From Candidatus Hodarchaeum mangrovi (GTDB taxonomy: Archaea > Asgardarchaeota > Heimdallarchaeia > Hodarchaeales > Hodarchaeaceae): DNA of 33,041 nucleotides. The DNA lies in contig JAEOUE010000116.1 of the NCBI GenBank assembly GCA_016839515.1, positions 1 through 33,041 on the forward strand. The letters are read 5' to 3'. Shown piece by piece: positions 9,201-26,549 of the stretch (within the stretch, counting starts at the first letter, position 1; every line of letters begins with the position of its first letter). Below the pieces are notes generated by a model. It saw only the letters and a program-made list of their open reading frames with translations, made no database searches and was not told where the DNA came from. The translations under genes and the position numbers were made by a program.

Positions 9201-12200
9201 AAAGGAGAGGTATGGAAATATATTGTAAGAGTTTATGATGGAGAAGCATGGTCAAATAACTTTACTTCATCTTCAATAACAGTTTTAAACTCATTATCTT
9301 ACTTAGAAAGTGTTACTTTAATTGGTGGTCGTAACACCTCTCAAGATGTAGGATTTATTTACTCCTTCAAGGATATTGATAATGATATTATTGATACTGG
9401 AAAAACTAAGATTAATTGGACAATTGAATTTGAGGGTGGGGGGAATATTACTGTTAATGGAGTTTGGACACTCTCACATGTATATTTCTCGGCAGGTGAT
9501 TATATTACAATCCAAATCACTCCTCATGATGGAGAAAGTCTTGGATTGGTTTGGGAAAGTTATAGAGTAAGATTAATTATCGGAAATGCAATTCCTCAAG
9601 TTCAAGGACAGCCTAATATTCTCGCTCCTAATAATAGTACAATTTATTACGCATCAGGAAAATTATCTCTAAATTATTCAGCATATGATGCTGATTTTGG
9701 GGAAAGTAGTTCTTTATATAATCTTGATTTCGATCTTGAAGGATATGTTGTAGGAGCACAATACCGTTGGTATCGTAATGGAATTTTAATGTCTGATTTA
9801 ACTACTCCAACCGTTTCTGTTAATTATTTAGCAAGAGGACAAATATGGAAAGCTGGTGTTCGTATTAGAGACCGATTTGGAAGCTACAGCAAATGGGTAA
9901 ACTCTTCATCAATTTTAATCATTAATAGCTTACCATATATTACTTCGTTCCAAGTTTTAAATCCAAATGTTAGATCAGATCAAAATCTTGATATTAAATT
10001 CTCATTTTATGATTACGACCTAGATACAATAAACATTTCTAAAACACTCATTTATTGGTATAAGAATTCTTTCCTTATTTCAGGAACAGAAAATTCAACA
10101 GTAATCTCAGTAGAACAAGGGATAAATCTTTATTACGTGACTATCAGGCTTTATTCTGATTATTACATTCGAGGAGATAATATAACTGTAGAGGTCCAGC
10201 CTCACGATGGTCTTAACTGGGCTATTGTGGTCAATACAAGTTCTACAATTATGATTAGGAATGCAAAACCAACTGCTTATAACGTAAATCTATTAGCTAA
10301 TGGAACATCATCCATTGCTTATACTATTGATCCATTGAATGTTTCTTGGGCTTATTTTGATCTAGATAATGATCCTGAAGTTTCTATGGAAGCAAAAATC
10401 ATCTGGCGGAATAAAGGAATAATTCAACCAATGTTTGAAAATTTTACTTCTATTAATCCTATAAATACCCTAAAAGGAGACATTTGGAGTGTAGAAGTTC
10501 TTGTTTATGATGGATTTGAATGGTCTAGCATTGGGAAGAGTTCTCCACCAATATCAATAATTAATAGTCCACCAGTAGTATTTTCTGTCATAATAGAAAG
10601 TAATTCCCATAATAGGACAGAAACATATGCAGATACTGATTTAGTCTTAGATTTATTGGATAATGTGAATTTTACTGATGTTGATGGAGATTTTATACTC
10701 TGGTATGAATCAGACATTAATTGGTTTAGAAACTCAATTTATATTCCGATGTATGATAATTTAACAATCCTACCTAGTACTGCAACTACAAAAGGAGAAA
10801 TTTGGTATGCAGTCTTAAGAATTACTGATGATCTCAAGATCTGGTCGTTAAATATCTCTTCTCAAACGATTTTAATTGTAAATAAAGCTCCTATAGTTTT
10901 AGGCGTTTCACTTGATGGAAATGAATATAGCGGTTTCTTTGTGGAAGACGAAAACATCACGATAATTATTAATTTATTTGATGTAGACATTGGCGATAAT
11001 GATTCCTCATATCTCTATTGGAGTGTAAATGGAAATTATTTATCACAATTTGATAATCTTCGTACTATTTCAAGTAAATATACTACTCCAGGAGATATTT
11101 GGAGTTTAGAAGTAATTGCATCAGATGGTTTTAGAAATGCTACAACAATTTTTCCCTTTAGCTTTGATATTGAAAGCCGTCCAAGCATTGAAAATATTAC
11201 CACGGAGATTCTTCAAGAGTCTGATGGACAATATTTGATTTCATCACTTATAACTGATGCATTAAATCATTCTATTGAATTAGTTAGGTATAATTTATTT
11301 ATAAATGGAGCAATATTATCTGATTCTGGGTTTATGGCACCTAATTCTACAGGACATTGGAGATTTTCATATGATTTATTAAGCAATGAAAATAACAGCT
11401 ATTTTGGCACGATAGCGACTGTTTACATTACTGCACGATCAAATATAGGAGTAACAACTGTACAAAGTTTTAATTTCACTTTAATTGATGGAGTTGCTCC
11501 ACGAGTGTCTAAATCAGCTGGATCACTTGGTGTTTATTTCAAACCAGATAAAGATACAAATCCAACAAACTTGACTTTCTTTGCTGAAATTGAGGAATAT
11601 GGTTCAGGCGCTGAACAAATACTTCTTTTCTACTATTTTGAGCTAATAGAGGAAGGAGAAGGAGCTTTCTTAGCACAAGAAGATTATAATGTTGTAGAAA
11701 TGATATATCAACGAACTGTAGGTTTAGTACAGATTTATTCAGTAAGCATACCTTTTTCAGCTAATGGATCAAATTTTAATGTCTTATACTATGTTTCTAC
11801 ATTGGATTTGTCTGGAAATCTTAATGAAAACGCATTTGATATTAGAAATTATCCTGATCGAATAGAAAATGAGCGATTAATATATAGGGTACCAGGATTA
11901 CCTGAATGGGTTCTTTTAGTTGCAGGATTAGCTGTATTTCTAGTAATTATTGGTAGTATAGTTTATGTCAAATTTATTCGAAAACCTGAAATAGTAGGAC
12001 TTGATAAAGAACTAGTAATAGCAAAATTAAAAAACATCATAGATTCTGATGTTGTGAACGCTCTCGATACTCATACTATAGGAGTAGTTGTATCCTTTTT
12101 CGACCAACGTCATGGACCAATCCCAATAATCGTAATTCCTGAGATCCTAAAGGATAATTTTGCTAAGCTTGTTGAAATGTCTGATCGATCATTCAGCGTT

Positions 12201-12566
12201 ACAGGATTCTCTGAAGATTTTGAAATCGAAGTGCCTTCAGGTTATGATTTTGTTTTAGCCCTAGGTACTAGAATTAGTGTTTTAACCTATGGTTTTTCAC
12301 TTGAGCGTCCTGAAGCTAGAGGAGGAAGAGAAAATATCACTGTTAATTTTCTGATTCATAAAGAACTCTTCCCTCTCGTTAATCAATTTGTCCCTGAAAT
12401 TCAAAAAGAAGTACATCAAATACATATCATCATGGATAAGGAACCCAATGAAAAAGAAAAGATCTTAAAGAATATTTTTGAATTACGAAAATATCTTTCA
12501 AAGATTATTCTGTCTTATCAAGAAATTTATGGAACTACAGAGCTTTTATTAAGTGAGGAAAAATGA
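3276..12566 (+). CDS. Giant single-pass surface protein: 3x (DUF2341 + LamG/ConA-like), Ig/cadherin-like repeats, TM helix, cytoplasmic longin/uDENN-like domain
   Basis: Uninterrupted 3096-codon ORF; the true start is probably ATG 3303 or 3318. N-terminal hydrophobic signal (KYLIVSILGLQIIASALIL). Three units show YRK.ITI..FPVL.D..WV..MY.GN..W...WHL..DFDG.ND..FDG.IDE. About 11 NxxP/DxDxD/W/DG repeats follow, with many NxS/T sequons. TM WVLLVAGLAVFLVIIGSIVYV at 11907-11969 is followed by KFIRK and a ~200-aa tail. Confidence 0.9.
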   Translation: MNKTKDQRHMSCKIMKLGKYLIVSILGLQIIASALILSINNPVVVGEFSKHLLRGLEYPNNLEESVYHSVPRLMNESLDSYSLVKQETSTPLKPKILDSFSLPSWNGLGFSYRKNITINPANIPIDLLNFPVLIDLESDPDLAGIQQINGNDLFFTDAQGNKLAFELEYFDKQNLNLKAWVKTDISSSSPTVISMYFGNSTVSSQANPTGVWGADYMGVWHLNNNPVGGTMFDSTSNNNDGTPGGSMTSNDLIKGLIGKAIDFDGSNDLINLGNINSNLWTGITVEAWVFHDVLGDDRVICKSPDSVTANHIFSLAIETSNRLRVRLSTDGTGGTVASSLDSSGTISLGTWHHIAFTWSSTSERVYLYIDGAQDINNFAKDGDSIMDSTVPVIIANVNSGTENRYFDGLIEEARIIKSALPSSWITVEYLNQFNPYKFYSVGNLERPSTYDLFRYSKQLTIDHSKVIGTADHNLINILFDIYDPDLRVTGKLPNNGENLVFTNIDTKNNLYYEVEEWNPTYNSTHARLRVWVQVDTLFVDKNTHIKMFYGNQANYGYYRPDIVWSDYLGVWHLGESVIDEGSAVNVHIDSSTNSNHGNQHGNDDITGMSGLAQNLDGTNDYIEMGDLDILELQGDQFFTLSGWFYRDTATTSDVIIDKFYPQSPDYTGYLIYIDETDGLLHFYQGDDDDDGIHMASSTNFNTAPSGWYSFYITFDTGVNSDTSSWNIYINGNDDTAIRELWGIGAPSYSGNDDFYSSNNLASFTIGAHHNLSNYFDGKIDEIRFIQEELSSDRVATEYNNIKSPVEFYSISNEQENENWWIDSSFGRKKDIILDNSYFGSNEEMIFQYPRAPGYTETWNHFSKTGGTQDYQTYDEQVADDDSSYIYTTVNDSYRYTSFFIKGISDLEGDIISLSVKTRTRRTGSIISGETRSFIRLNNNNYYGSSRWPSYSYSTFTDTWTTNPLTLSSWTWDDLANLQLGVRGRITYTSTIQLRITQVYVEIKYSNNGQLFDYPLLVDIKDSDLKTDIQSNGKDIAFYDSTGTKLTHEISILDQDFNSTHAHLQTWVKMKTLSLSSSTVLSMYYGNSTIESQEQKYDTWNSFKAVYHLEESPVGQIVDDSLKGFNLTSSGSMSSGDLVSGKIGNAIDFDGINDQLYSTQNMQFNSFSISAWINFENGNGWRTILNIDRTASYPNWLQLAITDFIPTIDDSSGSYTFGSALSTYTWYYITYIYDNNTNELRVYVNGVQAGSIRFLVISERNDDYALGAWGTSDWFDGRIDELRIGSIPYENAWIKMDYITQVNPGSVLHIGNEYDHEAPLINDFGVDDFGQGTPIFWANVTDWDSTTSGVKIQINETEYSMTKNGTGIWIYQATVAYNDYIEYAISNSTDNKGNYLTKPSNTKSVTFNYDTISPTVVDWIYLTDTKEFRANVSDSWGIIDTVILNVTYHENMGDLTDLWAVMRNTTYGYVNDTIFMIEGTINFVVTVNDTNGNTFTSATHPGYVANNPPSISNLQLSKNPLTLDLPVTSNDTLFVLYDYADTENDLEFGTEIRWEKWNGSHWILQSAFNDRKNITAASLIRGAIWQVQVHPKDGKDFGNWGITGNITIQNSIPIVTGISLTPSAPITSSNLVAAYVWLDADTGDTEQGSQIRWYLDNGNGSGYFLLTAYNNLKTLPFSVTSKGYQVYFNVTPSDGIGLGNQVKSQIITIQNSPPSLIVKINGFSTPGTVDNVTDLNGSYIYTDIDLDSINISSLEIRWWRYNFSSSQFENYVNNTFIISNTITKTTDLWRVEMRVSDGTTISSWFSSATISIGVSPNTPPEALFVNLTSSNPVAGGYLYANYTYYDLNGDPEASTTFKWFRNGVHQPQFDGMQQISTSLIKSDNWTVSVRPQDIYNDYGNWSTSEIIKILNTAPTVITATIFPASNVYTSNILLANFQVDDIDEDSVTTYSIVWLNGTKEISELNNHTEVTVAFTKKGEVWKYIVRVYDGEAWSNNFTSSSITVLNSLSYLESVTLIGGRNTSQDVGFIYSFKDIDNDIIDTGKTKINWTIEFEGGGNITVNGVWTLSHVYFSAGDYITIQITPHDGESLGLVWESYRVRLIIGNAIPQVQGQPNILAPNNSTIYYASGKLSLNYSAYDADFGESSSLYNLDFDLEGYVVGAQYRWYRNGILMSDLTTPTVSVNYLARGQIWKAGVRIRDRFGSYSKWVNSSSILIINSLPYITSFQVLNPNVRSDQNLDIKFSFYDYDLDTINISKTLIYWYKNSFLISGTENSTVISVEQGINLYYVTIRLYSDYYIRGDNITVEVQPHDGLNWAIVVNTSSTIMIRNAKPTAYNVNLLANGTSSIAYTIDPLNVSWAYFDLDNDPEVSMEAKIIWRNKGIIQPMFENFTSINPINTLKGDIWSVEVLVYDGFEWSSIGKSSPPISIINSPPVVFSVIIESNSHNRTETYADTDLVLDLLDNVNFTDVDGDFILWYESDINWFRNSIYIPMYDNLTILPSTATTKGEIWYAVLRITDDLKIWSLNISSQTILIVNKAPIVLGVSLDGNEYSGFFVEDENITIIINLFDVDIGDNDSSYLYWSVNGNYLSQFDNLRTISSKYTTPGDIWSLEVIASDGFRNATTIFPFSFDIESRPSIENITTEILQESDGQYLISSLITDALNHSIELVRYNLFINGAILSDSGFMAPNSTGHWRFSYDLLSNENNSYFGTIATVYITARSNIGVTTVQSFNFTLIDGVAPRVSKSAGSLGVYFKPDKDTNPTNLTFFAEIEEYGSGAEQILLFYYFELIEEGEGAFLAQEDYNVVEMIYQRTVGLVQIYSVSIPFSANGSNFNVLYYVSTLDLSGNLNENAFDIRNYPDRIENERLIYRVPGLPEWVLLVAGLAVFLVIIGSIVYVKFIRKPEIVGLDKELVIAKLKNIIDSDVVNALDTHTIGVVVSFFDQRHGPIPIIVIPEILKDNFAKLVEMSDRSFSVTGFSEDFEIEVPSGYDFVLALGTRISVLTYGFSLERPEARGGRENITVNFLIHKELFPLVNQFVPEIQKEVHQIHIIMDKEPNEKEKILKNIFELRKYLSKIILSYQEIYGTTELLLSEEK
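7788..11170 (+). repeat. About 11 tandem ~100-aa Ig/cadherin-like protein repeats within the giant ORF
   Basis: Units start NNPP, NSIP, NSPP, NTPP, NTAP, NSLS, NAIP, NSLP, NAKP, NSPP, NKAP. Each has an aromatic-x-x-x-D-x-D/N/E-x-D-type loop, a conserved Trp strand and a late V-x-P/V-x-DG strand. The units are diverged at DNA level. Confidence 0.8.
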
Positions 12567-12571
12567 TTTAT

Positions 12572-14827
12572 TCAATTATCCTCTAAAAGAGCTAGGTAAT
12601 GCTTTAATTTTTCAGAAGTCTCATCAACTTCCTTTTCTTTTTTATCAACTTGTTCTGGTATGAATTTAGGGATACGATCTTTCCAACTTTTCTTCTGTTT
12701 AGCGGTAGCTTGAATAAATGTCTGAAGAGAAGCATGAATCAACCGGCTTGCAAAATCAAAAGCTCCATCAGTTTCAAGAGGGATTTGCATTCTATCTTTA
12801 ATTAAGTGACTAATTCCTTCAATAGATAGGCTTCCATCAATTTCAACATTTCCAATGGGATGTCCTCTCTGTAGAAACGATAAAATGTAATTAGCATTAC
12901 CATTTGGTTTTGGTTCTAAAGTAAATGCAACACCTTGACTATCTGGTAATAGAAGGTAGTTACCTTGAACCTGAACTTCCAATGGAACTTTGAATTCGGA
13001 TAACGGGATTTTTTTAATATCCATCGATCCTTCTTTCGGAGACGTAACTAAATCTTTTGTTGATTTTAATTTTTTGACTTTTAGACTCTGGATTGCCTTA
13101 TGAATAATATTCGCTGCAAAATCGAGAGAAGCTTTTCCACCTTCAAAGATTCCCAAAGTTAACATACTCAATTCATAAGCCATAAAGTAGATGAGCTCAT
13201 TTATTGTTACATTTGGTGAAAGAATTGACCCACCAATAAGCTCATATTTATTTTGACCAGTAAAGATATAGAAATTTAATTGAACATTCACAGCTTCCTC
13301 CCCAGCTAACTCTATTCTAAATCCGAGGTCACGAGTATCTGGCAAAGTTATTATCCCCTCAATATTTTCTGAAATCACAGGAATATCGATACTAGCTTTT
13401 TCAATTGGCTTTTCTTTGGCTGGAGGTAGGACAATTTCTTCTTTAACTTTCTCTTTCTGCTTTTCTTTTACTTTTCGCTCTTCTCTTAAATCCTTTAAAT
13501 AACCCTCAGCAATTTGTGCTATAGATAAATTCGGACGTTCTGTAGCAATAACTAAACATTGAACCATCTCATCTTCAGCGATTAAGTTTTTAAGATATGC
13601 ATTAAAAAGTTCCGTAATTCGAAATTTATTCAGAGTACTAATATGTTTTAATTTTTGGTTCTTAACAAATGGGATGTATTTTAATATGACATTTAGTACT
13701 AGAGGAACAGGGATCCCAGATCTAGCTGCCATTTCAAAGAGATCAACATACCCAGAATTCATTAAATCAATTGCTTGTGCTTTTTCAATACGATAATAAT
13801 CAATAAGATGAACAATTTGCTTATTTTCTAATTCTTTCTCAATGGTAAGAGATTCAGAGGAAACAACTTTTATTTCTTCCGTTACAGTCTCAGGTTGTTT
13901 AGGAAAGGAGGATTGGTATGTAGAAGAAGATTTACTGGCTTCTGAAATAAAATTTTCATTTTGAACTGGCTCTGGTGTCATTTTATTATTTAGGGAATTT
14001 TCCGCAAAAGCTTTAGCTTCAGCTTGAGGTTTATTAGTAACAGCAGTGGACAAAAGGGATTGGAGGCGTTGTAAAATGGCAGGATCTCCAGCTTTAGATT
14101 TATCAGCTTGCATTATTGAAATTGTATGTGATCCAACAGGTTGATCTGAAGTTATTGCTGCTTCTGGTTTCTTTAAAATAATTGAACTATCAGCATATTC
14201 CTCAATCAAACCGATTTTACGCCCTTCTACAAATTCACTCTCTGAAAGCGAAGGCATTACGAGTTCAAAGATTCTTCCAAATGCATCAATAACTGTTTCA
14301 GGTTTATAAATCGTCGTTCTAAAAAATCTTAATGATTTAGGATTATATTCAAGTTGAAATTGTTCCTTTAATTGAGAATGAATACTTTCATAATTTGGGC
14401 TAGCACGAAGTAAATCATTTTTATGAAGAAAAACAAAGACTTCCGCTTCAGGTGAAAAAGTATTCAGTTTTTCTAAGCATGCTGCAAAATATTGAATCGA
14501 ATTATTTCGGGTTGTTTTATTTGCAACATCAATTAAATAAATAAAAGTTTTTACAGAAGAAAAAACAAACGGACTAAAGCCGCTTAGAAACCTCTTTAGA
14601 AAAATCTTCTGTCCTCCAAGGTCAACGATGTTAATTGGAGTATCTTTCACATTAAGTGATAGTCTTTCATAGTTTATTGTAGCAGATAGGGAACTAACTT
14701 CCTCAGTTCTCTTTTTTAAAAAGAAAATACGTTTAACCGCTGTTTTACCTGCTTCAGAAAGACCAGCGATTAGAATCTTATAACCTAACCTTTGAGTAAT
14801 TTCTGAATCCGAAACCCATTCGCTCAC
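12572..14827 (-). CDS. Rag/Gtr1-family small GTPase with a ~560-aa C-terminal extension
   Basis: G1 GLSEAGKT, G2 ATINY, G3 DLGGQ, G4 HKND (Rag-type His), G5 TTIY. GTG start. A low-complexity linker, a helical region and a duplicated C-terminal domain follow. Confidence 0.85.
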   Translation of the reverse strand: MSEWVSDSEITQRLGYKILIAGLSEAGKTAVKRIFFLKKRTEEVSSLSATINYERLSLNVKDTPINIVDLGGQKIFLKRFLSGFSPFVFSSVKTFIYLIDVANKTTRNNSIQYFAACLEKLNTFSPEAEVFVFLHKNDLLRASPNYESIHSQLKEQFQLEYNPKSLRFFRTTIYKPETVIDAFGRIFELVMPSLSESEFVEGRKIGLIEEYADSSIILKKPEAAITSDQPVGSHTISIMQADKSKAGDPAILQRLQSLLSTAVTNKPQAEAKAFAENSLNNKMTPEPVQNENFISEASKSSSTYQSSFPKQPETVTEEIKVVSSESLTIEKELENKQIVHLIDYYRIEKAQAIDLMNSGYVDLFEMAARSGIPVPLVLNVILKYIPFVKNQKLKHISTLNKFRITELFNAYLKNLIAEDEMVQCLVIATERPNLSIAQIAEGYLKDLREERKVKEKQKEKVKEEIVLPPAKEKPIEKASIDIPVISENIEGIITLPDTRDLGFRIELAGEEAVNVQLNFYIFTGQNKYELIGGSILSPNVTINELIYFMAYELSMLTLGIFEGGKASLDFAANIIHKAIQSLKVKKLKSTKDLVTSPKEGSMDIKKIPLSEFKVPLEVQVQGNYLLLPDSQGVAFTLEPKPNGNANYILSFLQRGHPIGNVEIDGSLSIEGISHLIKDRMQIPLETDGAFDFASRLIHASLQTFIQATAKQKKSWKDRIPKFIPEQVDKKEKEVDETSEKLKHYLALLEDN

Positions 14828-14985
14828 GATAATCCCTTGATTTTATAGCTTATTGAGAAAGTAATTTGTCTATTGAGATGTATTATCATATTTCTATGAG
14901 TTATGAATTATAGATTCTTTTTAATGCAATGCTAACTAATATATTAGAAAAGCTTAATTAAAAGAATATCATTTCAAAAATCAAT
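14828..14985. promoter_or_regulatory. Probable bidirectional promoter region between the two GTPase genes
   Basis: 158-bp AT-rich gap between head-to-head starts, with several TATA-like tracts and the palindrome CTAATATATTAG at 14936-14947. Exact elements cannot be assigned. Confidence 0.45.
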
Positions 14986-15897
14986 ATGGCAACTCTTCAA
15001 ACAATTCAAAAGGTAGTCTTTCTAGGCTTAGGCCATTCTGGGAAATCAAGCATTAAATCAGTTGTTTTTGAAGGTAAAAGCCCAGAAGAGGTTATGGATT
15101 ACGCTGCGACAATTAACTATACCCGTTCGACAAAAGGGGTTTTAGACAGTGCGTTTCAAATATTCGATTGTGGAGGGCAAGAGAATTTTATTTCAGTATT
15201 TGTAGGTGATCAAGCAGAATTTATCTTTTCTGATGTAATCGTGTTAATCTGGGTTGTGGATGTCTCTAATATGGATCAAATTAGTACTAGTAAATTCTAT
15301 TTTGACCATGCTCTTAAGAGACTAAATCAATATTCCCCTGAAGCGGAAATCTATGTTTTTTTTCATAAAAATGATTTGATTATACAAAATCTTCAAAAAC
15401 AAGTAATAGAAACAATGGAACAATATTTTGTTTCTCCTTATGATAATAAAATCACCTATCGTGCAACTTCTATATTTAATCAGTCTATTTATCTTGCGAT
15501 TGGAGAAATTATTCGTACTTTGATGATAAAGTCAACTAAAGCTCAAACTGTAAGCGAGGCTATTCGAGAATTTTTAAAACAGAATAAAGAGCTAGGAGGA
15601 GTCTCGATTTATACAGCAGAAGAGGGTCTTCCAGTTTTTGAGGAAGGCGAACTAGCAGAACAAATAATTATCCCCGCTAATTTGTGTTTAACAACAAATG
15701 AAAGGATTGGGTCTGAATTTAGTGTTACAGATGTTTTTAAAACCACTATTGAAACTAATGACTATATTTTTGTTTTTCAACATTTAAAAACAACTCAAGA
15801 ACTCCTTTTATCAGGGATTGCACGAAAAATTGCCCCCTTGCAATATGTTATGGTAAAAATGGAACAACTAGCAACTATTGTGAAAGAGTTATTATAA
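14986..15897 (+). CDS. Rag/Gtr1-family small GTPase with a C-terminal roadblock/longin-like domain
   Basis: G1 GLGHSGKSS, G2 ATINY, G3 DCGGQ (as in RagA/Gtr1), G4 HKND, G5 TSIF. The C-terminal ~115 aa show a helix, GGVSIYTAEEGLPV, a helix, beta strands and a final helix, typical of the roadblock/profilin-like fold. Confidence 0.88.
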   Translation: MATLQTIQKVVFLGLGHSGKSSIKSVVFEGKSPEEVMDYAATINYTRSTKGVLDSAFQIFDCGGQENFISVFVGDQAEFIFSDVIVLIWVVDVSNMDQISTSKFYFDHALKRLNQYSPEAEIYVFFHKNDLIIQNLQKQVIETMEQYFVSPYDNKITYRATSIFNQSIYLAIGEIIRTLMIKSTKAQTVSEAIREFLKQNKELGGVSIYTAEEGLPVFEEGELAEQIIIPANLCLTTNERIGSEFSVTDVFKTTIETNDYIFVFQHLKTTQELLLSGIARKIAPLQYVMVKMEQLATIVKELL

Positions 15898-16708: not shown

Positions 16709-17644
16709 TTGGATTTACTCGATAAATCTATTTTATTTGAATTAAGCTCAAATTGTCGGGTATCTTTTACTTTTCTTGCTCAAAAATACGGAGTTACATC
16801 TAATACAATCAAAAATAGAGTGAAAATTTTAGAAGAACAACAAATCATAAAGAAATATATTGTAGAGCTAAATCCTAAATTATTAAATCTAAATACTGCC
16901 ATTATTTGGATAAAATTTCCCTCTTTAATTAATACGGATACTTTTTTAAAACTTGGCCAGAATGAAAACATTTCTGCCATAGGAATAGGATTAGATTCGG
17001 CGTTTTTAATTATTAACTATCTATCAAATAATGAATTAGCACAAATGAAAGATTTAGTTTTGAAACAAATAGATACTGAAGAGATCATCGTATTTCCAGT
17101 TTTACCACCTCTTTCTATCAAAACCCTGATTCCTAAAAGGAATTTAGAAGAAATTAATGATATTGAATGGTATATTTTATCTCTTTTACGGCATAATGCA
17201 AGAATAACCTTGAGTAATCTTTCTAGGAAAACAAATCTTTCAGTAAAAACCCTCAGACGAAGAATCGAAACACTCCATTCCGATTCTATTGCTTTTTTTA
17301 CAATTCAAATGAACCCAAGTGTTCTTAAGAAAGGATTAATGGTAATTTTTGCCCTTGAGCTTAAAAAATTAACTTTAGAATCTCAAACCTTGATAGAAAA
17401 GGAGGTAAGAAAAAAATTAGGTGAAAAATTTTGGGTTAGTTGGCAAGTTGTAGATAGACCAATTATTCTTCTCGCATTTCAAGCCAATAATATGTTAGAA
17501 GTATCAAACATCTCTAAAACCTTATCTGCTATTGAAAAAAACCCTATATCTATTCAAAAATTAATAGGAGAAAAATTTGAATATTTTTCAGATCTATTTG
17601 ACCATTTATTAGATAAAAAAATAAACAAAATTAAAATAAACTGA
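16709..17644 (+). CDS. Lrp/AsnC-family transcriptional regulator with two tandem wHTH-effector modules
   Basis: MDLLDKSILFELSSNCRVSFTFLAQKYGVTSNTIKNRVKILEE and a second copy, IEWYILSLLRHNARITLSNLSRKTNLSVKTLRRRIETL. Confidence 0.85.
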   Translation: MDLLDKSILFELSSNCRVSFTFLAQKYGVTSNTIKNRVKILEEQQIIKKYIVELNPKLLNLNTAIIWIKFPSLINTDTFLKLGQNENISAIGIGLDSAFLIINYLSNNELAQMKDLVLKQIDTEEIIVFPVLPPLSIKTLIPKRNLEEINDIEWYILSLLRHNARITLSNLSRKTNLSVKTLRRRIETLHSDSIAFFTIQMNPSVLKKGLMVIFALELKKLTLESQTLIEKEVRKKLGEKFWVSWQVVDRPIILLAFQANNMLEVSNISKTLSAIEKNPISIQKLIGEKFEYFSDLFDHLLDKKINKIKIN

Positions 17645-17654
17645 AAATATGACC

Positions 17655-18323
17655 TTATTTTTGATTTCCGCTACTAAAACAATGTGAGATTTTAGTATAC
17701 CATGAATCTTCATCCAATAATATAAGGAGGAGCCTCAGAGTATCTAATAATGACTCTATATTTTTCCAATTCAACTGACTCACTAAATCGGCAAGACTTT
17801 TATCAGCATTTCTAATTAAATTTTGAGCTAATTCCCCCTTTGCTGAGAATAGGTCTATCAAATTGTTTCTAAAACATTCTACATCCACAATTTTGTTCAG
17901 ATGAGATTCCAATACTTTAGCCACTCCTGTATAATAGAGATACTTTTGTTTTTCAGTCTCTTCACACACCTCTTCAGATTTTGTTTTTACAAAAAAGATT
18001 TTTGCAGTTCTCATATAAAGGGTTTGGGTATTACGCTTTCCTTTGTAGGGAAATTTTCGCATTCCAGCTGATACAACTAATTTATAGTTTTCCAAAATTC
18101 CTAAATGCCTATAAATAGTTTTTTTAGACTTTTCAACACCTGAAGCATCAAGTTCTCTTTTTAAATCATCAACAGTCATAGGATTATTAGTTTTTCGAAG
18201 GATATTCAGAATATTATTGAGATTAGGGTCTTGAAACAGCTTAAGAACTTCAGGGTCAGTAATATCTTTGACAAGTGGCTGTAAATAAGAAATCTCATCA
18301 ACAAAATTATTTTCAGAGTTCAA
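17655..18323 (-). CDS. Winged-helix (ArsR-like) transcriptional regulator
   Basis: FQDPNLNNILNILR..PMTVDDL..KSKKTIYRHLGILENYKLV..TLYMRTAK. Confidence 0.8.
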   Translation of the reverse strand: MNSENNFVDEISYLQPLVKDITDPEVLKLFQDPNLNNILNILRKTNNPMTVDDLKRELDASGVEKSKKTIYRHLGILENYKLVVSAGMRKFPYKGKRNTQTLYMRTAKIFFVKTKSEEVCEETEKQKYLYYTGVAKVLESHLNKIVDVECFRNNLIDLFSAKGELAQNLIRNADKSLADLVSQLNWKNIESLLDTLRLLLILLDEDSWYTKISHCFSSGNQK

Positions 18324-25799: not shown

Positions 25800-26549
25800 T
25801 TAGGCATCAAAAATTTTATTACTTTCTGAATTATAGTACACATATTCTTCAACAAGAATAGATAAATCTTTACTATTCTTTGATAAAAAAGTGAATATAT
25901 CATCTACAAACTTCATTAATGCAATCTTTGCTCTAGAATCCATTGGTAGAGGAAACTCTTTTAGTATTTTATTTTTTAGGAAGATCAATTTTTTTCTATC
26001 GATTTCTGATTGAATCTTTCGTACTTCGGAATCGAAATCCGTCTCACGTAACCATGGATAATATAGAAAAAGCTCACTTCCCATTGTTTTGTTTGAAAAG
26101 CTATCTTCAAAATCAATTGCCCAAATTTGGTCTGAAGTTATAAGATAATTAGCCCCATGCCGATCTAAAGCTCCTATCCAGGCCTCAAATACAATTAATT
26201 CCTTTAACTTTGTTTCTATCCTGTTTCTACTCTTCTGTAATTCTTCACCTCCCTCAATCCAAAATTGGAGTAAGCCATAAGAATGTCCTATTTTTGATAA
26301 TATAGATTGAGGAATTGGTATTTCAAGAAATTGGGCTAATATGGAAATAATATATTCAGTTAAAAGAATTTTAGGACTTAACTTTTTCCATAACCATTTA
26401 TTATTTTCAGTATCAGTAAAAACAAAGGCTTTTTTTTTATAATTTGTTCCTCTGACAGAAATTGTATCGATGGAGTCCACTAATGAGAGAATTTTCTCGT
26501 GTGAGAATATTGGATAGATTTTGATGTCTTCTTGAGTGGAACCTTCCAT
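25800..26549 (-). CDS. HipA-like / PI3K-PI4K-superfamily atypical kinase
   Basis: WLWKK (beta3 Lys), TEYIISILAQFLEIPIP (alphaC Glu), FEAWIGALDRHGANYL (catalytic loop) and WAIDFEDSF (Mg-binding). Confidence 0.75.
   Translation of the reverse strand: MEGSTQEDIKIYPIFSHEKILSLVDSIDTISVRGTNYKKKAFVFTDTENNKWLWKKLSPKILLTEYIISILAQFLEIPIPQSILSKIGHSYGLLQFWIEGGEELQKSRNRIETKLKELIVFEAWIGALDRHGANYLITSDQIWAIDFEDSFSNKTMGSELFLYYPWLRETDFDSEVRKIQSEIDRKKLIFLKNKILKEFPLPMDSRAKIALMKFVDDIFTFLSKNSKDLSILVEEYVYYNSESNKIFDA

What the first reader, a model, noticed from the sequence alone, without database searches (positions are those of the whole stretch)
12572..15897. Head-to-head paralogous Rag-like GTPases: a possible proto-heterodimer
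Seen: both share ATINY, D[LC]GGQ..F, FS.V...I...DV, SPEAE.[FY]VF.HKNDL and T[TS]I[YF], both keep the switch-II Gln, and they are divergent across 158 bp. Only the short one has an obvious roadblock-like tail. Established: eukaryotic Rags heterodimerise via C-terminal roadblock domains. Inference: a duplicated, co-regulated pair with asymmetric roles, one switch and one scaffold-fused.
Basis: partly seen in the sequence, partly recalled or inferred. Interest (0 to 1): 0.72.

Follow-up and report, generated by a model that had tools for sequence, protein, structure and literature searches.

The report
Linked long and short Rag-like GTPases
An Asgard (Hodarchaeales-type) archaeon keeps two anciently diverged Rag-type GTPase genes head to head, one ordinary and one with other domains where the usual pairing domain would be, beside a giant membrane protein with a folliculin-like tail. 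The set is a testable relative of the eukaryotic Rag switch, but probably not a RagA/RagC-style dimer.

Summary
ORFs 12572-14827(-) (751 aa) and 14986-15897(+) (303 aa) are both Gtr1/RagA-family GTPases, 35% identical over 175 residues and 158 bp apart. The short one is a GTPase with a roadblock-like tail (moderate profile support). After its GTPase domain the long one has a disordered linker, a GatE-like helical domain, two copies of an unclassified strand-plus-helix domain and a conserved acidic end helix. No roadblock was detected in it. The head-to-head pair recurs in 21 of 29 related loci, and the two genes have matching histories (Mantel r 0.82). They belong to two old subfamilies; an exclusive sister relation is rejected (AU p 0.004). 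Their relation to eukaryotic RagA is unresolved, and no RagC/Gtr2 sequence could be sampled. The long family's closest relatives seem to keep a roadblock-like tail, so the long form looks derived rather than "proto". Large membrane proteins with a folliculin-like longin tail abut Rag-like genes repeatedly, also in other Heimdallarchaeia families. Part of the shared motif (SPEAE..HKNDL) comes from a local gene-conversion tract. Whether the two proteins touch is untested. The scan reached similar conclusions on orthologous DNA from other genomes.

The parts
12572..14827 (-). Long Rag-like GTPase gene (751 aa, L-type)
   Evidence: ORF; PF04670 at 106.9 bits; 17 full-length orthologues, 42-53% identical
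14228..14827 (-). GTPase domain of the long protein (residues 1-200): GLSEAGKT, ATINYE, DLGGQ, HKND, TTIY
   Evidence: best solved relatives RagA 85.6 bits, Gtr1 85.1 bits
13844..14221 (-). Low-confidence linker (residues 203-328) holding one conserved helix (249-263, AGDPAVLxKLQxLM)
   Evidence: AF2 pLDDT under 50 for 203-248 and 263-328; consensus
13436..13855 (-). Helical domain (residues 325-464) with weak similarity to the helical region of GatE
   Evidence: AF2 helices, pLDDT 74-89; PDB 1zq1_C E 5.1e-4 and 0.006; NCBIfam GatE E 1.4e-5, far under its cut-off; no Pfam family
13076..13402 (-). First copy of an unclassified five-strand, two-helix domain (residues 476-584)
   Evidence: AF2 of the C-terminal part, pLDDT 79.1, pTM 0.70
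12698..13003 (-). Second copy of the same domain (residues 609-710)
   Evidence: best row WNK1 CCT-like domain 5g3q_B, Z 7.1, rmsd 3.2, 77 aligned: middling
12578..12622 (-). Conserved acidic C-terminal helix (DETSEKLKxYLxLLExD)
   Evidence: the same ending in many long-family representatives
14828..14985 (.). AT-rich divergent intergenic region, 158 bp; presumably holds both promoters (not mapped)
   Evidence: gaps of 192-579 bp and no obviously conserved motif in 18 related loci
14986..15897 (+). Short Rag-like GTPase gene (303 aa, S-type)
   Evidence: ORF; PF04670 at 133.1 bits; 15 sequences, 59-68% identical to the first
14986..15531 (+). GTPase domain of the short protein (residues 1-182): GLGHSGKS, ATINYT, DCGGQ, HKND, TSIF
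   Evidence: Gtr1 115 bits, RagA 102 bits
15532..15894 (+). C-terminal roadblock-like domain of the short protein (residues 183-303)
   Evidence: hhalign of 30 S-type tails against 7 roadblock proteins of this genome: probability 59.5%, E 9e-5, 93 columns; weaker with the narrow alignment; language-model lead only
14412..14468 (.). Arm 1 of the 57-nt inverted repeat (G4 region of the long gene)
   Evidence: covered without differences by independent metagenome contigs
15321..15377 (.). Arm 2 of the inverted repeat (G4 region of the short gene); likely gene-conversion tract
11898..12566 (+). Context: membrane helix and longin-like cytoplasmic tail of the 3096-aa surface protein, convergent with the long gene and 5 bp from it

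Best explanation
The two genes are a stably linked pair from two old subfamilies of archaeal Rag/Gtr-like GTPases. I call them L-type (the long gene) and S-type (the short gene). They most likely act in one membrane-proximal switch module together with the folliculin-like longin tail of the neighbouring giant surface protein. Shown here: both have complete GTP-binding motifs; the pair is kept, inherited and duplicated as a unit; L-type genes sit beside a second Rag-like gene and beside longin-tailed membrane proteins in several Heimdallarchaeia families. Inferred: the S-type protein (GTPase plus roadblock-like tail) dimerises or docks through that tail as Rag proteins do. The L-type protein, in which no roadblock was found, would couple its GTPase to other partners through its helical domain, its tandem domains and its acidic end helix. 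The longin tail would tether or regulate one or both GTPases at the membrane. The long form is read as a derived version of an older pair in which both partners had roadblock-like tails, so any contact between the two proteins would not be the canonical tail-to-tail Rag dimer.
For: Family: PF04670 for both. Linkage: the divergent short partner is present in 21 of 29 loci that encode a long homologue; 2 more loci have another S-type gene plus a HEAT-repeat gene upstream, and 1 is cut by a contig end. One contig of G004 holds two long genes 50 kb apart, so several pairs per genome are real. Co-inheritance: GTPase-domain distances of long and short partners over 21 pairs correlate (Mantel r 0.82; 0 of 5000 permutations as high), and the nearest neighbours match, including the second pair of this genome on C186. 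Old subfamilies: long family 100/98, short clade 100/98, L superclade 97/93. Recurrent pairing of an L-superclade gene with another Rag-like gene: the window, C186, C98/L065, L069 (tandem, 10-nt overlap), and L062-L064 and L067. Longin tails: homologous tails end the giants that converge on the long gene in 7 loci, plus a 93-aa remnant. At least 19 of 105 tail matches in 41 genomes abut a Rag-like match (hand comparison). In 4 of 5 fetched loci of families f3 and f4 a tail-bearing ORF lies directly upstream of the L-type gene. Derived state: tails of the long family's sister group align with the S-type tail profile (probability 48.8%, E 1.8e-4, 89 columns), whereas the long protein's own tail gives under 1% against all three profiles.
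Against: Physical contact and a shared pathway are inferred from gene order alone. Five of 28 informative loci have no Rag-like partner within the fetched flank (L037, L042, L044, L045, L047). Related genomes are not independent, so the linkage counts and the Mantel test overstate. The roadblock assignments rest on hhalign probabilities of 36-60%, and no structure of the short protein was predicted. Most longin-tail matches (at least 81 of 105) are not next to a listed Rag-like match. The intergenic region shows no conserved promoter or operator. The function of every non-GTPase domain of the long protein is unknown.
Confidence: 0.55

Rival explanations
1. Canonical Rag-type heterodimer, the first reader's reading: the two proteins dimerise through C-terminal roadblock domains like RagA/B-RagC/D or Gtr1-Gtr2, and one of the long protein's domains is a cryptic roadblock.
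For: Both are Rag-family GTPases and the pair is conserved. An operon-encoded Rag-like pair of MK-D1 was predicted to dimerise through roadblock domains (PMC10933270, passages read). The two tandem domains of the long protein pack into one confident unit (pTM 0.70) and could serve as a platform.
Against: Profile comparisons of the whole long protein, its linker and its C-terminal part against roadblock proteins of this genome, S-type tails and L-sister tails all give under 1% probability. The modelled order of elements, five strands then two helices, twice, differs from the roadblock order as I recall it. Both profiles score best on RagA/Gtr1 and much lower on RagC/Gtr2: short 115/102 against 60/45-59 bits, long 85 against 25/23 bits. 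So there is no A-like/C-like split.
Confidence: 0.1
2. Functionally separate GTPases: the two genes are neighbours through shared regulation or inertia of gene order and act in different processes. For example, the short one would form homodimers, while the long one would work with the tubulin-like or giant-protein neighbours.
For: Homology stops at the GTPase domain. Five of 28 informative loci lack a partner. The wider neighbourhoods differ: giant protein, tubulin-like trio or HEAT protein. The genes are divergent, not co-transcribed.
Against: Linkage survives duplication of the pair, rearrangement of the surroundings and change of orientation across families: divergent in this genus, tandem in G023, convergent in f3 and f4. 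That is hard to explain without selection for keeping the two together.
Confidence: 0.22
3. GTPase plus regulator: the short protein's roadblock-like tail acts on the long protein's GTPase domain as a platform, GAP or GEF in the manner of MglB on MglA or Ragulator on Rags, rather than forming a symmetric dimer.
For: Roadblock and longin domains are known GTPase platforms (PMC3747258, abstract seen in the listing; PMC10933270, passages). The long GTPase domain is far more conserved than the rest of the protein: most of the invariant columns lie in residues 1-210. This fits a constrained interaction surface.
Against: No test here. The short protein has its own complete GTPase motifs, so it is not merely a regulator.
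Confidence: 0.13

Closest known systems
Eukaryotic Rag heterodimer (RagA/B-RagC/D; yeast Gtr1-Gtr2)
   Same: The same Pfam family for both proteins. Rag-type G4 motif HKxD and DxxGQ. The best solved relatives are RagA and Gtr1. Two different family members are kept together. The short protein has the Rag layout of a GTPase plus a roadblock-like tail.
   Different: No roadblock was detected in the long protein. Neither partner is RagC/Gtr2-like by score. Long and short families are not exclusive sisters (AU p 0.004). In the best tree eukaryotic RagA/Gtr1 groups with another archaeal group of about 400-aa proteins (98/84), but alternatives are not rejected (p 0.26 and 0.33). No TOR, Ragulator or lysosome context.
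Operon-encoded Rag-like pair of 'Ca. Prometheoarchaeum syntrophicum' MK-D1 with an AF2-predicted dimer through roadblock domains (Tran et al. 2024, PMC10933270; passages read)
   Same: Adjacent genes for two different Asgard Rag-like GTPases, read as partners. G023, of the sister family, has such a tandem pair: 362 and 308 aa, 10-nt overlap, both with tail-profile matches.
   Different: Here the genes are divergent. One partner carries a linker, a GatE-like helical domain and two unclassified domains in place of a detectable roadblock. That paper lists GTPase fusions to longin and roadblock domains; in the passages I read it does not mention this architecture.
Longin-domain GAP complexes for Rags (FLCN-FNIP, GATOR1) and the FLCN/SMCR8-type Asgard longins (PMC12290439; passages read)
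   Same: A longin-like tail containing HGP (FFDQRHGPIPI) is encoded right beside Rag-like GTPase genes, repeatedly. That paper asks whether Asgard Rag/Gtr GTPases are the partners of such longins.
   Different: Here the longin is the cytoplasmic end of a giant LamG-rich membrane protein, not a soluble two-subunit complex. I did not test GAP activity or the arginine finger.
MglA-MglB (bacterial Ras-like GTPase with a roadblock GAP)
   Same: The general logic of a small GTPase working with a roadblock-fold partner.
   Different: No separate roadblock gene lies on this contig: the 9 Robl_LC7 matches of the genome are on other contigs. Both proteins here are Rag-type.

Membership tests
Rag/Gtr GTPase family (Pfam PF04670 Gtr1_RagA) | GTPase domain scoring above the family's curated cut-off | tested here: met
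   Long 106.9 bits and short 133.1 bits against a cut-off of 22; PF04670 is the best family for both.
Rag/Gtr GTPase family (Pfam PF04670 Gtr1_RagA) | Complete nucleotide-binding motifs: P-loop GxxxxGK[ST], switch-I Thr, DxxGQ with the switch-II Gln, Rag-type G4 HKxD (motif definitions recalled) | tested here: met
   Long: GLSEAGKT, ATINYE, DLGGQ, HKND. Short: GLGHSGKS, ATINYT, DCGGQ, HKND. These columns are invariant in 17 long and 15 short sequences.
Rag/Gtr GTPase family (Pfam PF04670 Gtr1_RagA) | C-terminal roadblock domain after the GTPase domain: short protein | tested here: inconclusive
   Leans towards yes. hhalign of 30 S-type tails against 7 roadblock proteins of this genome: probability 59.5%, E 9e-5, 93 columns. 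With the narrow alignment: 34%, 29 columns. A PDB profile search with the tail found nothing. No structure was predicted for it.
Rag/Gtr GTPase family (Pfam PF04670 Gtr1_RagA) | C-terminal roadblock domain after the GTPase domain: long protein | tested here: inconclusive
   Nothing found. hhalign of the whole protein, linker and C-terminal part against roadblocks, S-type tails and L-sister tails all give under 1%. AF2 shows a linker, a helical domain and two five-strand, two-helix domains. A very derived roadblock cannot be excluded.
RagA/B-RagC/D (Gtr1-Gtr2) heterodimer | One partner orthologous to RagA/B, the other to RagC/D | tested here: inconclusive
   Both profiles score best on RagA/Gtr1. 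In the tree of 86 sequences, 12 eukaryotic RagA/Gtr1 lie outside both families, but joining them to the S clade or the L superclade is not rejected (p 0.26, 0.33). No RagC/Gtr2 sequence could be obtained.
RagA/B-RagC/D (Gtr1-Gtr2) heterodimer | Stable dimer through the two C-terminal domains, with coupled nucleotide states | not testable with these tools
   Needs purified proteins or a solved complex.
Asgard operon-type Rag-like pair (Tran et al. 2024) | Two different Rag-like genes encoded side by side and kept so in relatives | tested here: met
   21 of 29 loci; Mantel r 0.82 over 21 pairs.
Longin regulator plus Rag module (FLCN-FNIP / GATOR1 kind) | Longin-domain protein associated with the Rag GTPases (here: genomic association only) | tested here: met
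   Tail homologues converge on the long gene in 7 loci plus one remnant. At least 19 of 105 tail matches abut a Rag-like match. 4 of 5 loci of families f3 and f4.
Longin regulator plus Rag module (FLCN-FNIP / GATOR1 kind) | Catalytic arginine finger and GAP activity towards the GTPase | not tested
Only the HGP motif was seen in the tail sequence.
MglA-MglB | Separate roadblock-only gene next to the GTPase gene | tested here: not met
   None of the 9 Robl_LC7 matches of the genome is on contig C28.

The most novel reading that the evidence does not exclude
The pair and the neighbouring giant protein form a transmembrane signalling device. A huge LamG-rich surface protein would report through its cytoplasmic folliculin-type longin tail to two coupled Rag-like GTPases. 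The long one would have swapped its dimerising roadblock for a peptide-binding-like tandem module that recruits effectors, such as the tubulin-family proteins encoded beside the pair in sister loci. That would be a prokaryotic longin-Rag switch at the cell membrane, a living relative of the FLCN/GATOR-Rag logic that predates lysosomes and TOR.
Probability: 0.2. Interest if true: 0.85.

Novelty: new variant of a known kind. Interest (0 to 1): 0.55.

Why it matters
Rag GTPases and their longin-domain GAPs are core parts of eukaryotic nutrient sensing, and their pre-eukaryotic roles are unknown. Hodarchaeales are among the candidate closest relatives of eukaryotes. This locus offers three defined proteins whose genes stay together across Heimdallarchaeia: a short Rag-like GTPase, a long one without a detectable roadblock, and a membrane-anchored folliculin-like tail. 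The question raised in print, whether Asgard longins act on Asgard Rag/Gtr GTPases (PMC12290439), could therefore be tested directly with recombinant proteins. The locus also shows that archaeal Rag-like pairs can change their way of pairing, which warns against reading every such pair as a RagA/RagC forerunner.

Tried and rejected
1. Complex prediction (long 1-268, long 325-751 and the short protein as partner, with alignments A1 and A2): no verdict, scores 0.26 and 0.24 against a mark of 0.32; controls were not run. This is evidence neither for nor against binding.

2. The look-up of sequencing runs: no RNA holder listed, so co-expression and transcription starts could not be examined. Read laying on four DNA runs served only to confirm the assembly.

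3. Fold searches with the C-terminal model. Foldseek against the PDB gave no match at E 0.001 or better. VIA-align against 48,161 chains gave a best Z of 7.1, to a WNK1 CCT-like domain, which is within the range the tool calls common for models without a clear match. No roadblock or longin entry was among the 50 rows shown. That absence is not evidence that the fold differs.

4. Pfam on the isolated long C-terminal part, helical domain, short tail and giant tail: nothing significant. A PDB profile search with the short tail found nothing.

5. RagC/D or Gtr2 sequences for the tree. None appeared among the 120 listed homologues or the 150 listed representatives. Two candidates, P0241 and P0259, proved to be RagA-type.

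6. Papers on PDB entries 8YL2, 8ZLA and 9M28 or on 'LokiRagO': none found in the library. Vargova et al. 2025 is not held.

7. Conserved promoter motifs in the intergenic region: none obvious by eye in 18 related loci. The sigma-70 scanner was not used, because this is an archaeon.

8. A recent local duplication as the origin of the pair: rejected (AU p 0.004).

9. Assembly artefact or contamination as the source of the second pair: unlikely, since other genomes hold two pairs, once on a single contig.
Full report
OBSERVATION. The window holds two divergent ORFs. One lies at 12572-14827 on the minus strand (751 aa). The other lies at 14986-15897 on the plus strand (303 aa). They are separated by 158 bp of AT-rich DNA. 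Both match Pfam Gtr1_RagA far above its cut-off, at 106.9 and 133.1 bits against 22. They are 35% identical (62 of 175 residues, E 9e-31), and only within the GTPase domain. Profile-profile comparison of their orthologue alignments confirms this: 99.6% probability over 172 columns and nothing beyond.

ORGANISM AND FAMILY SIZE. The window is contig C28 of a 4.0-Mb assembly of 348 contigs, 91% complete and 6% contaminated by the tool's figures. The GC content is about 32%. Public records that encode relatives of the long protein are titled Hodarchaeota, Heimdallarchaeota and similar Asgard names. The genome has 26 PF04670 matches at E 0.001 or better, 8 of them strong. These include a second head-to-head long/short pair on contig C186.

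THE SHORT PROTEIN. Fifteen sequences are 59-68% identical to the window copy along the whole length. The profile's best solved relatives are Gtr1 (115 bits) and RagA (102 bits). RagC scores 55.9-60.2 bits and Gtr2 41.7-59.4 bits. I aligned residues 183-303 with 29 other S-type tails and compared them with seven roadblock proteins of this genome. The alignment covers 93 columns, with probability 59.5% and E 9e-5. The narrow alignment gave only 34% over 29 columns. A language-model look-up gave eukaryotic Gtr1_RagA fragments at 0.82 and a Robl_LC7 cluster at 0.75, which are leads only. I read the short protein as a canonical Rag layout, GTPase plus roadblock-like tail, with moderate support. No structure was predicted for it.

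THE LONG PROTEIN. Seventeen full-length orthologues are 42-53% identical overall, but most of the invariant columns lie in residues 1-210.
- The AF2 model of the whole protein (pLDDT 65) shows the GTPase domain (1-190) and a low-confidence linker (203-328) with one conserved helix (249-263).
- It also shows a helical domain (325-464), two units of five strands then two helices (476-584 and 609-710), and a terminal helix (736-750).
- The C-terminal 282 residues folded alone give pLDDT 79.1 and pTM 0.70.
- The best structural rows are WNK CCT-like domains (5g3q_B: Z 7.1, rmsd 3.2, 77 aligned; 6fbk_A: Z 6.0). The tool itself rates this level as common for models without a clear match.
- The helical domain has weak similarity to the helical region of GatE: PDB 1zq1_C at E 5.1e-4 and 0.006, and NCBIfam GatE at E 1.4e-5, far below its cut-off.
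- Profile comparisons of the whole protein, the linker and the C-terminal part against roadblocks, S-type tails and L-sister tails all give under 1% probability.
- The tandem domain was found in 18 of 400 Asgard genomes from 85 genera, all in this genus (17 of 21 plus the window's own genome; 0 of 378 outside it). It always lay in open frames that also hold, or are fragments of, long Rag-like genes.

LINKAGE. Twenty-nine loci from public genome contigs encode a long homologue.
- 21 have the short partner divergently adjacent.
- 2 (L043, L046) instead have a C112-type S-type gene and a 1022-1065-aa gene upstream on the same strand (HEAT repeats by Pfam in L043).
- 1 (L049) is cut 318 bp upstream by the contig end.
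- 5 have no partner within the flank.

Several genomes hold two or three such pairs, once on a single contig (G004:C168). Over 21 pairs the GTPase-domain distances of the long and short partners correlate (Mantel r 0.82; 0 of 5000 permutations as high). Nearest neighbours agree, so the pair has been inherited and duplicated as a unit. Related genomes are not independent, so this shows stable linkage and not binding.

PHYLOGENY. A search of 1.84 billion representatives with the short protein gave 927 proteins at E 0.001 or better, 274 at 1e-10 and 23 at 1e-30. Eukaryotic Gtr1/RagA representatives were recognised by source names (Tilletia and Tieghemiomyces gtr1, a choanoflagellate protein) and by PDB scores. 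I took 183 sequences. Twenty with fewer than 150 matched profile positions (or no match) were dropped. I then chose 86 of the remainder, leaving out long-branch and motif-less rows. The tree (203 columns, LG+C20+F+G4 by PMSF) shows the following:
- A Rag core, supported 100/99.
- Eukaryotic RagA/Gtr1 (100/100) joined to an archaeal group of about 400-aa proteins (98/84).
- A remaining archaeal set (89/88) that is an unresolved mix of the short clade (100/98), other S-type genes (95/87) and an L superclade (97/93).
- Within the L superclade lie the long family (100/98), its sisters, the C98a group and the 460-631-aa proteins of other Heimdallarchaeia.

Long plus short families as one clade is rejected (AU p 0.004). 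Eukaryotic RagA joined to the S clade (p 0.26) or to the L superclade (p 0.33) is not rejected. No RagC/Gtr2 sequence could be obtained. So the pair is not a recent duplication, and its relation to the eukaryotic A/C split stays open. These groups were named after a first tree had been seen, which weakens the AU tests.

AN OLDER PAIR. L-superclade genes sit beside a second Rag-like gene in the window, on C186, in C98/L065, in G023 (362 and 308 aa, overlapping by 10 nt), and in four loci of families f3 and f4 (490-604 aa L-type genes convergent with 406-407 aa genes). The tails of the long family's sister group align with the S-type tail profile (probability 48.8%, E 1.8e-4, 89 columns). So do the tails of the ~407-aa partners (36%). 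The tails of the C98a and IDSGGQ groups do not. The simplest reading is that both partners originally had roadblock-like tails and that the long family of this genus replaced its tail. This rests on moderate probabilities.

NEIGHBOURS. The 3096-aa LamG/DUF2341 protein ends 5 bp from the long gene. Its end consists of a membrane helix and a tail containing FFDQRHGPIPI.
- Homologous tails end the giants that converge on the long gene in 7 related loci, and one locus has a 93-aa remnant.
- In 41 genomes there are 105 tail matches. By hand comparison, at least 19 abut a Rag-like match within 330 nt, and at least 5 more giants abut one with their 5' ends.
- In 4 of 5 fetched loci of families f3 and f4, a tail-bearing ORF lies directly upstream of the L-type gene.
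- In this genome, C112 has a 2138-aa tail-bearing protein 87 nt upstream of an S-type gene, and C235 has a tail gene convergent with a long-gene fragment.
- A tubulin-family gene, a gene of about 1140 aa and a gene of about 311 aa flank the pair in L035, L047 and L055 and on C186; L041 and L043 show the first two within the DNA held.

GENE CONVERSION. A 57-nt inverted repeat joins the G4 regions of the two genes. Its core 12 codons are 92% identical in nucleotides and 100% at third positions. At this place the window's short protein carries long-like residues (VF, HKND) that its orthologues lack. Six other pair loci have no such repeat there. Independent metagenome contigs cover both arms without differences (X8 record 23; X5 records 16 and 18).

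HOW IT MOST LIKELY WORKS. Shown here: two intact Rag-family switches of different subfamilies are kept together, often with a longin-tailed membrane protein. Inferred: they form one membrane-proximal module. The short protein would use its roadblock-like tail to dimerise or dock. The long protein would couple its GTPase to other partners through its added domains. The longin tail would tether or regulate them, by analogy with FLCN and GATOR1 acting on Rags (PMC12290439, passages read). I give this 0.55. I give a canonical tail-to-tail heterodimer 0.10, separate functions 0.22, and a regulator-type action of the short tail on the long GTPase 0.13.

KNOWN OR NEW. Asgard Rag-like GTPases, their fusions to roadblock and longin domains, and one operon pair with a predicted roadblock-mediated dimer are in print (PMC10933270, passages read). 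My searches found no description of the long architecture or of its linkage to a short Rag and a longin-tailed giant. Supplements were not read, and Vargova et al. 2025 is not held. Earlier notes of this scan on orthologous DNA reached the same main points: e1-5416155, e1-5649359, e1-5649370 and e1-5455416. I read them after my own analysis, except that they prompted me to follow up the GatE hits.

LIMITS. There is no expression data, no model of the short protein and no RagC/D in the tree. The roadblock calls have moderate support. The adjacency counts were partly made by hand from two tables.

Noticed in passing
window 14412-14468 and 15321-15377: A 57-nt inverted repeat between the G4 regions of the two GTPase genes, with 100% third-position identity over 12 codons. 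It is a probable gene-conversion tract, specific to this lineage among 7 pair loci examined.
   Followed up: yes
G000 contigs C186 (L074:1-3010) and C235: A second head-to-head long/short pair. The long gene is cut at the contig end. C235 starts with a fragment like the long protein's C-terminus, convergent with a longin-tail gene, so the two contigs are probably neighbours (not verified).
   Followed up: partly
L074:9895-11196 (G000 C186): A third long-like copy: a 425-aa frame matching residues 138-591 of the long protein at 38% identity, with two stop codons in its tandem-domain match. It may be a decaying copy.
   Followed up: no
L074:3040-8795; L035:8265-14023; also L047, L055 (L041, L043: first two genes only): A conserved trio beside the pair: a tubulin/FtsZ-family protein of about 441-448 aa (PF00091, E 5.8e-19 in L035), a protein of about 1140 aa with no known family, and one of about 311 aa.
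   Followed up: partly
G000 C112 (L072); L043 and L046: A 2138-aa protein with a longin-like tail lies 87 nt upstream of an S-type Rag-like gene (C112 type), followed by 125-aa and 893-aa ORFs. In L043 and L046 a C112-type gene, a 1022-1065-aa gene (HEAT repeats by Pfam in L043) and a long Rag-like gene stand in tandem.
   Followed up: partly
window 12578-12622 and long-family representatives: The extreme C-terminus of long-family proteins ends in a conserved acidic amphipathic motif (..KLKxYLxLLExD). It looks like a short docking motif. The partner is unknown.
   Followed up: no
window 14986-15897: The window's short protein is the most divergent of 21 compared: its nearest GTPase-domain distance is 0.31, against 0.24 or less for all others. 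It has His in the P-loop (GLGHSGKS) where orthologues have Ala.
   Followed up: no
window 25800-26549 (-): A 249-aa ORF with a weak PI3_PI4_kinase match (E 8.8e-4, 19.7 bits, below the cut-off of 27.1).
   Followed up: no
window 16709-17644 (+) and 17655-18323 (-): A protein with two AsnC-type HTH domains and an ArsR/Fur-like winged-helix protein lie just downstream of the short gene's neighbour. They are possible local regulators. They are not conserved next to the pair in related loci.
   Followed up: no
L062-L064, L067 (families f3 and f4): A fixed three-gene order in other Heimdallarchaeia: a large ORF ending in a longin-like tail, then an L-type Rag-like gene (490-604 aa), then a convergent Rag-like gene of 406-407 aa.
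   Followed up: partly
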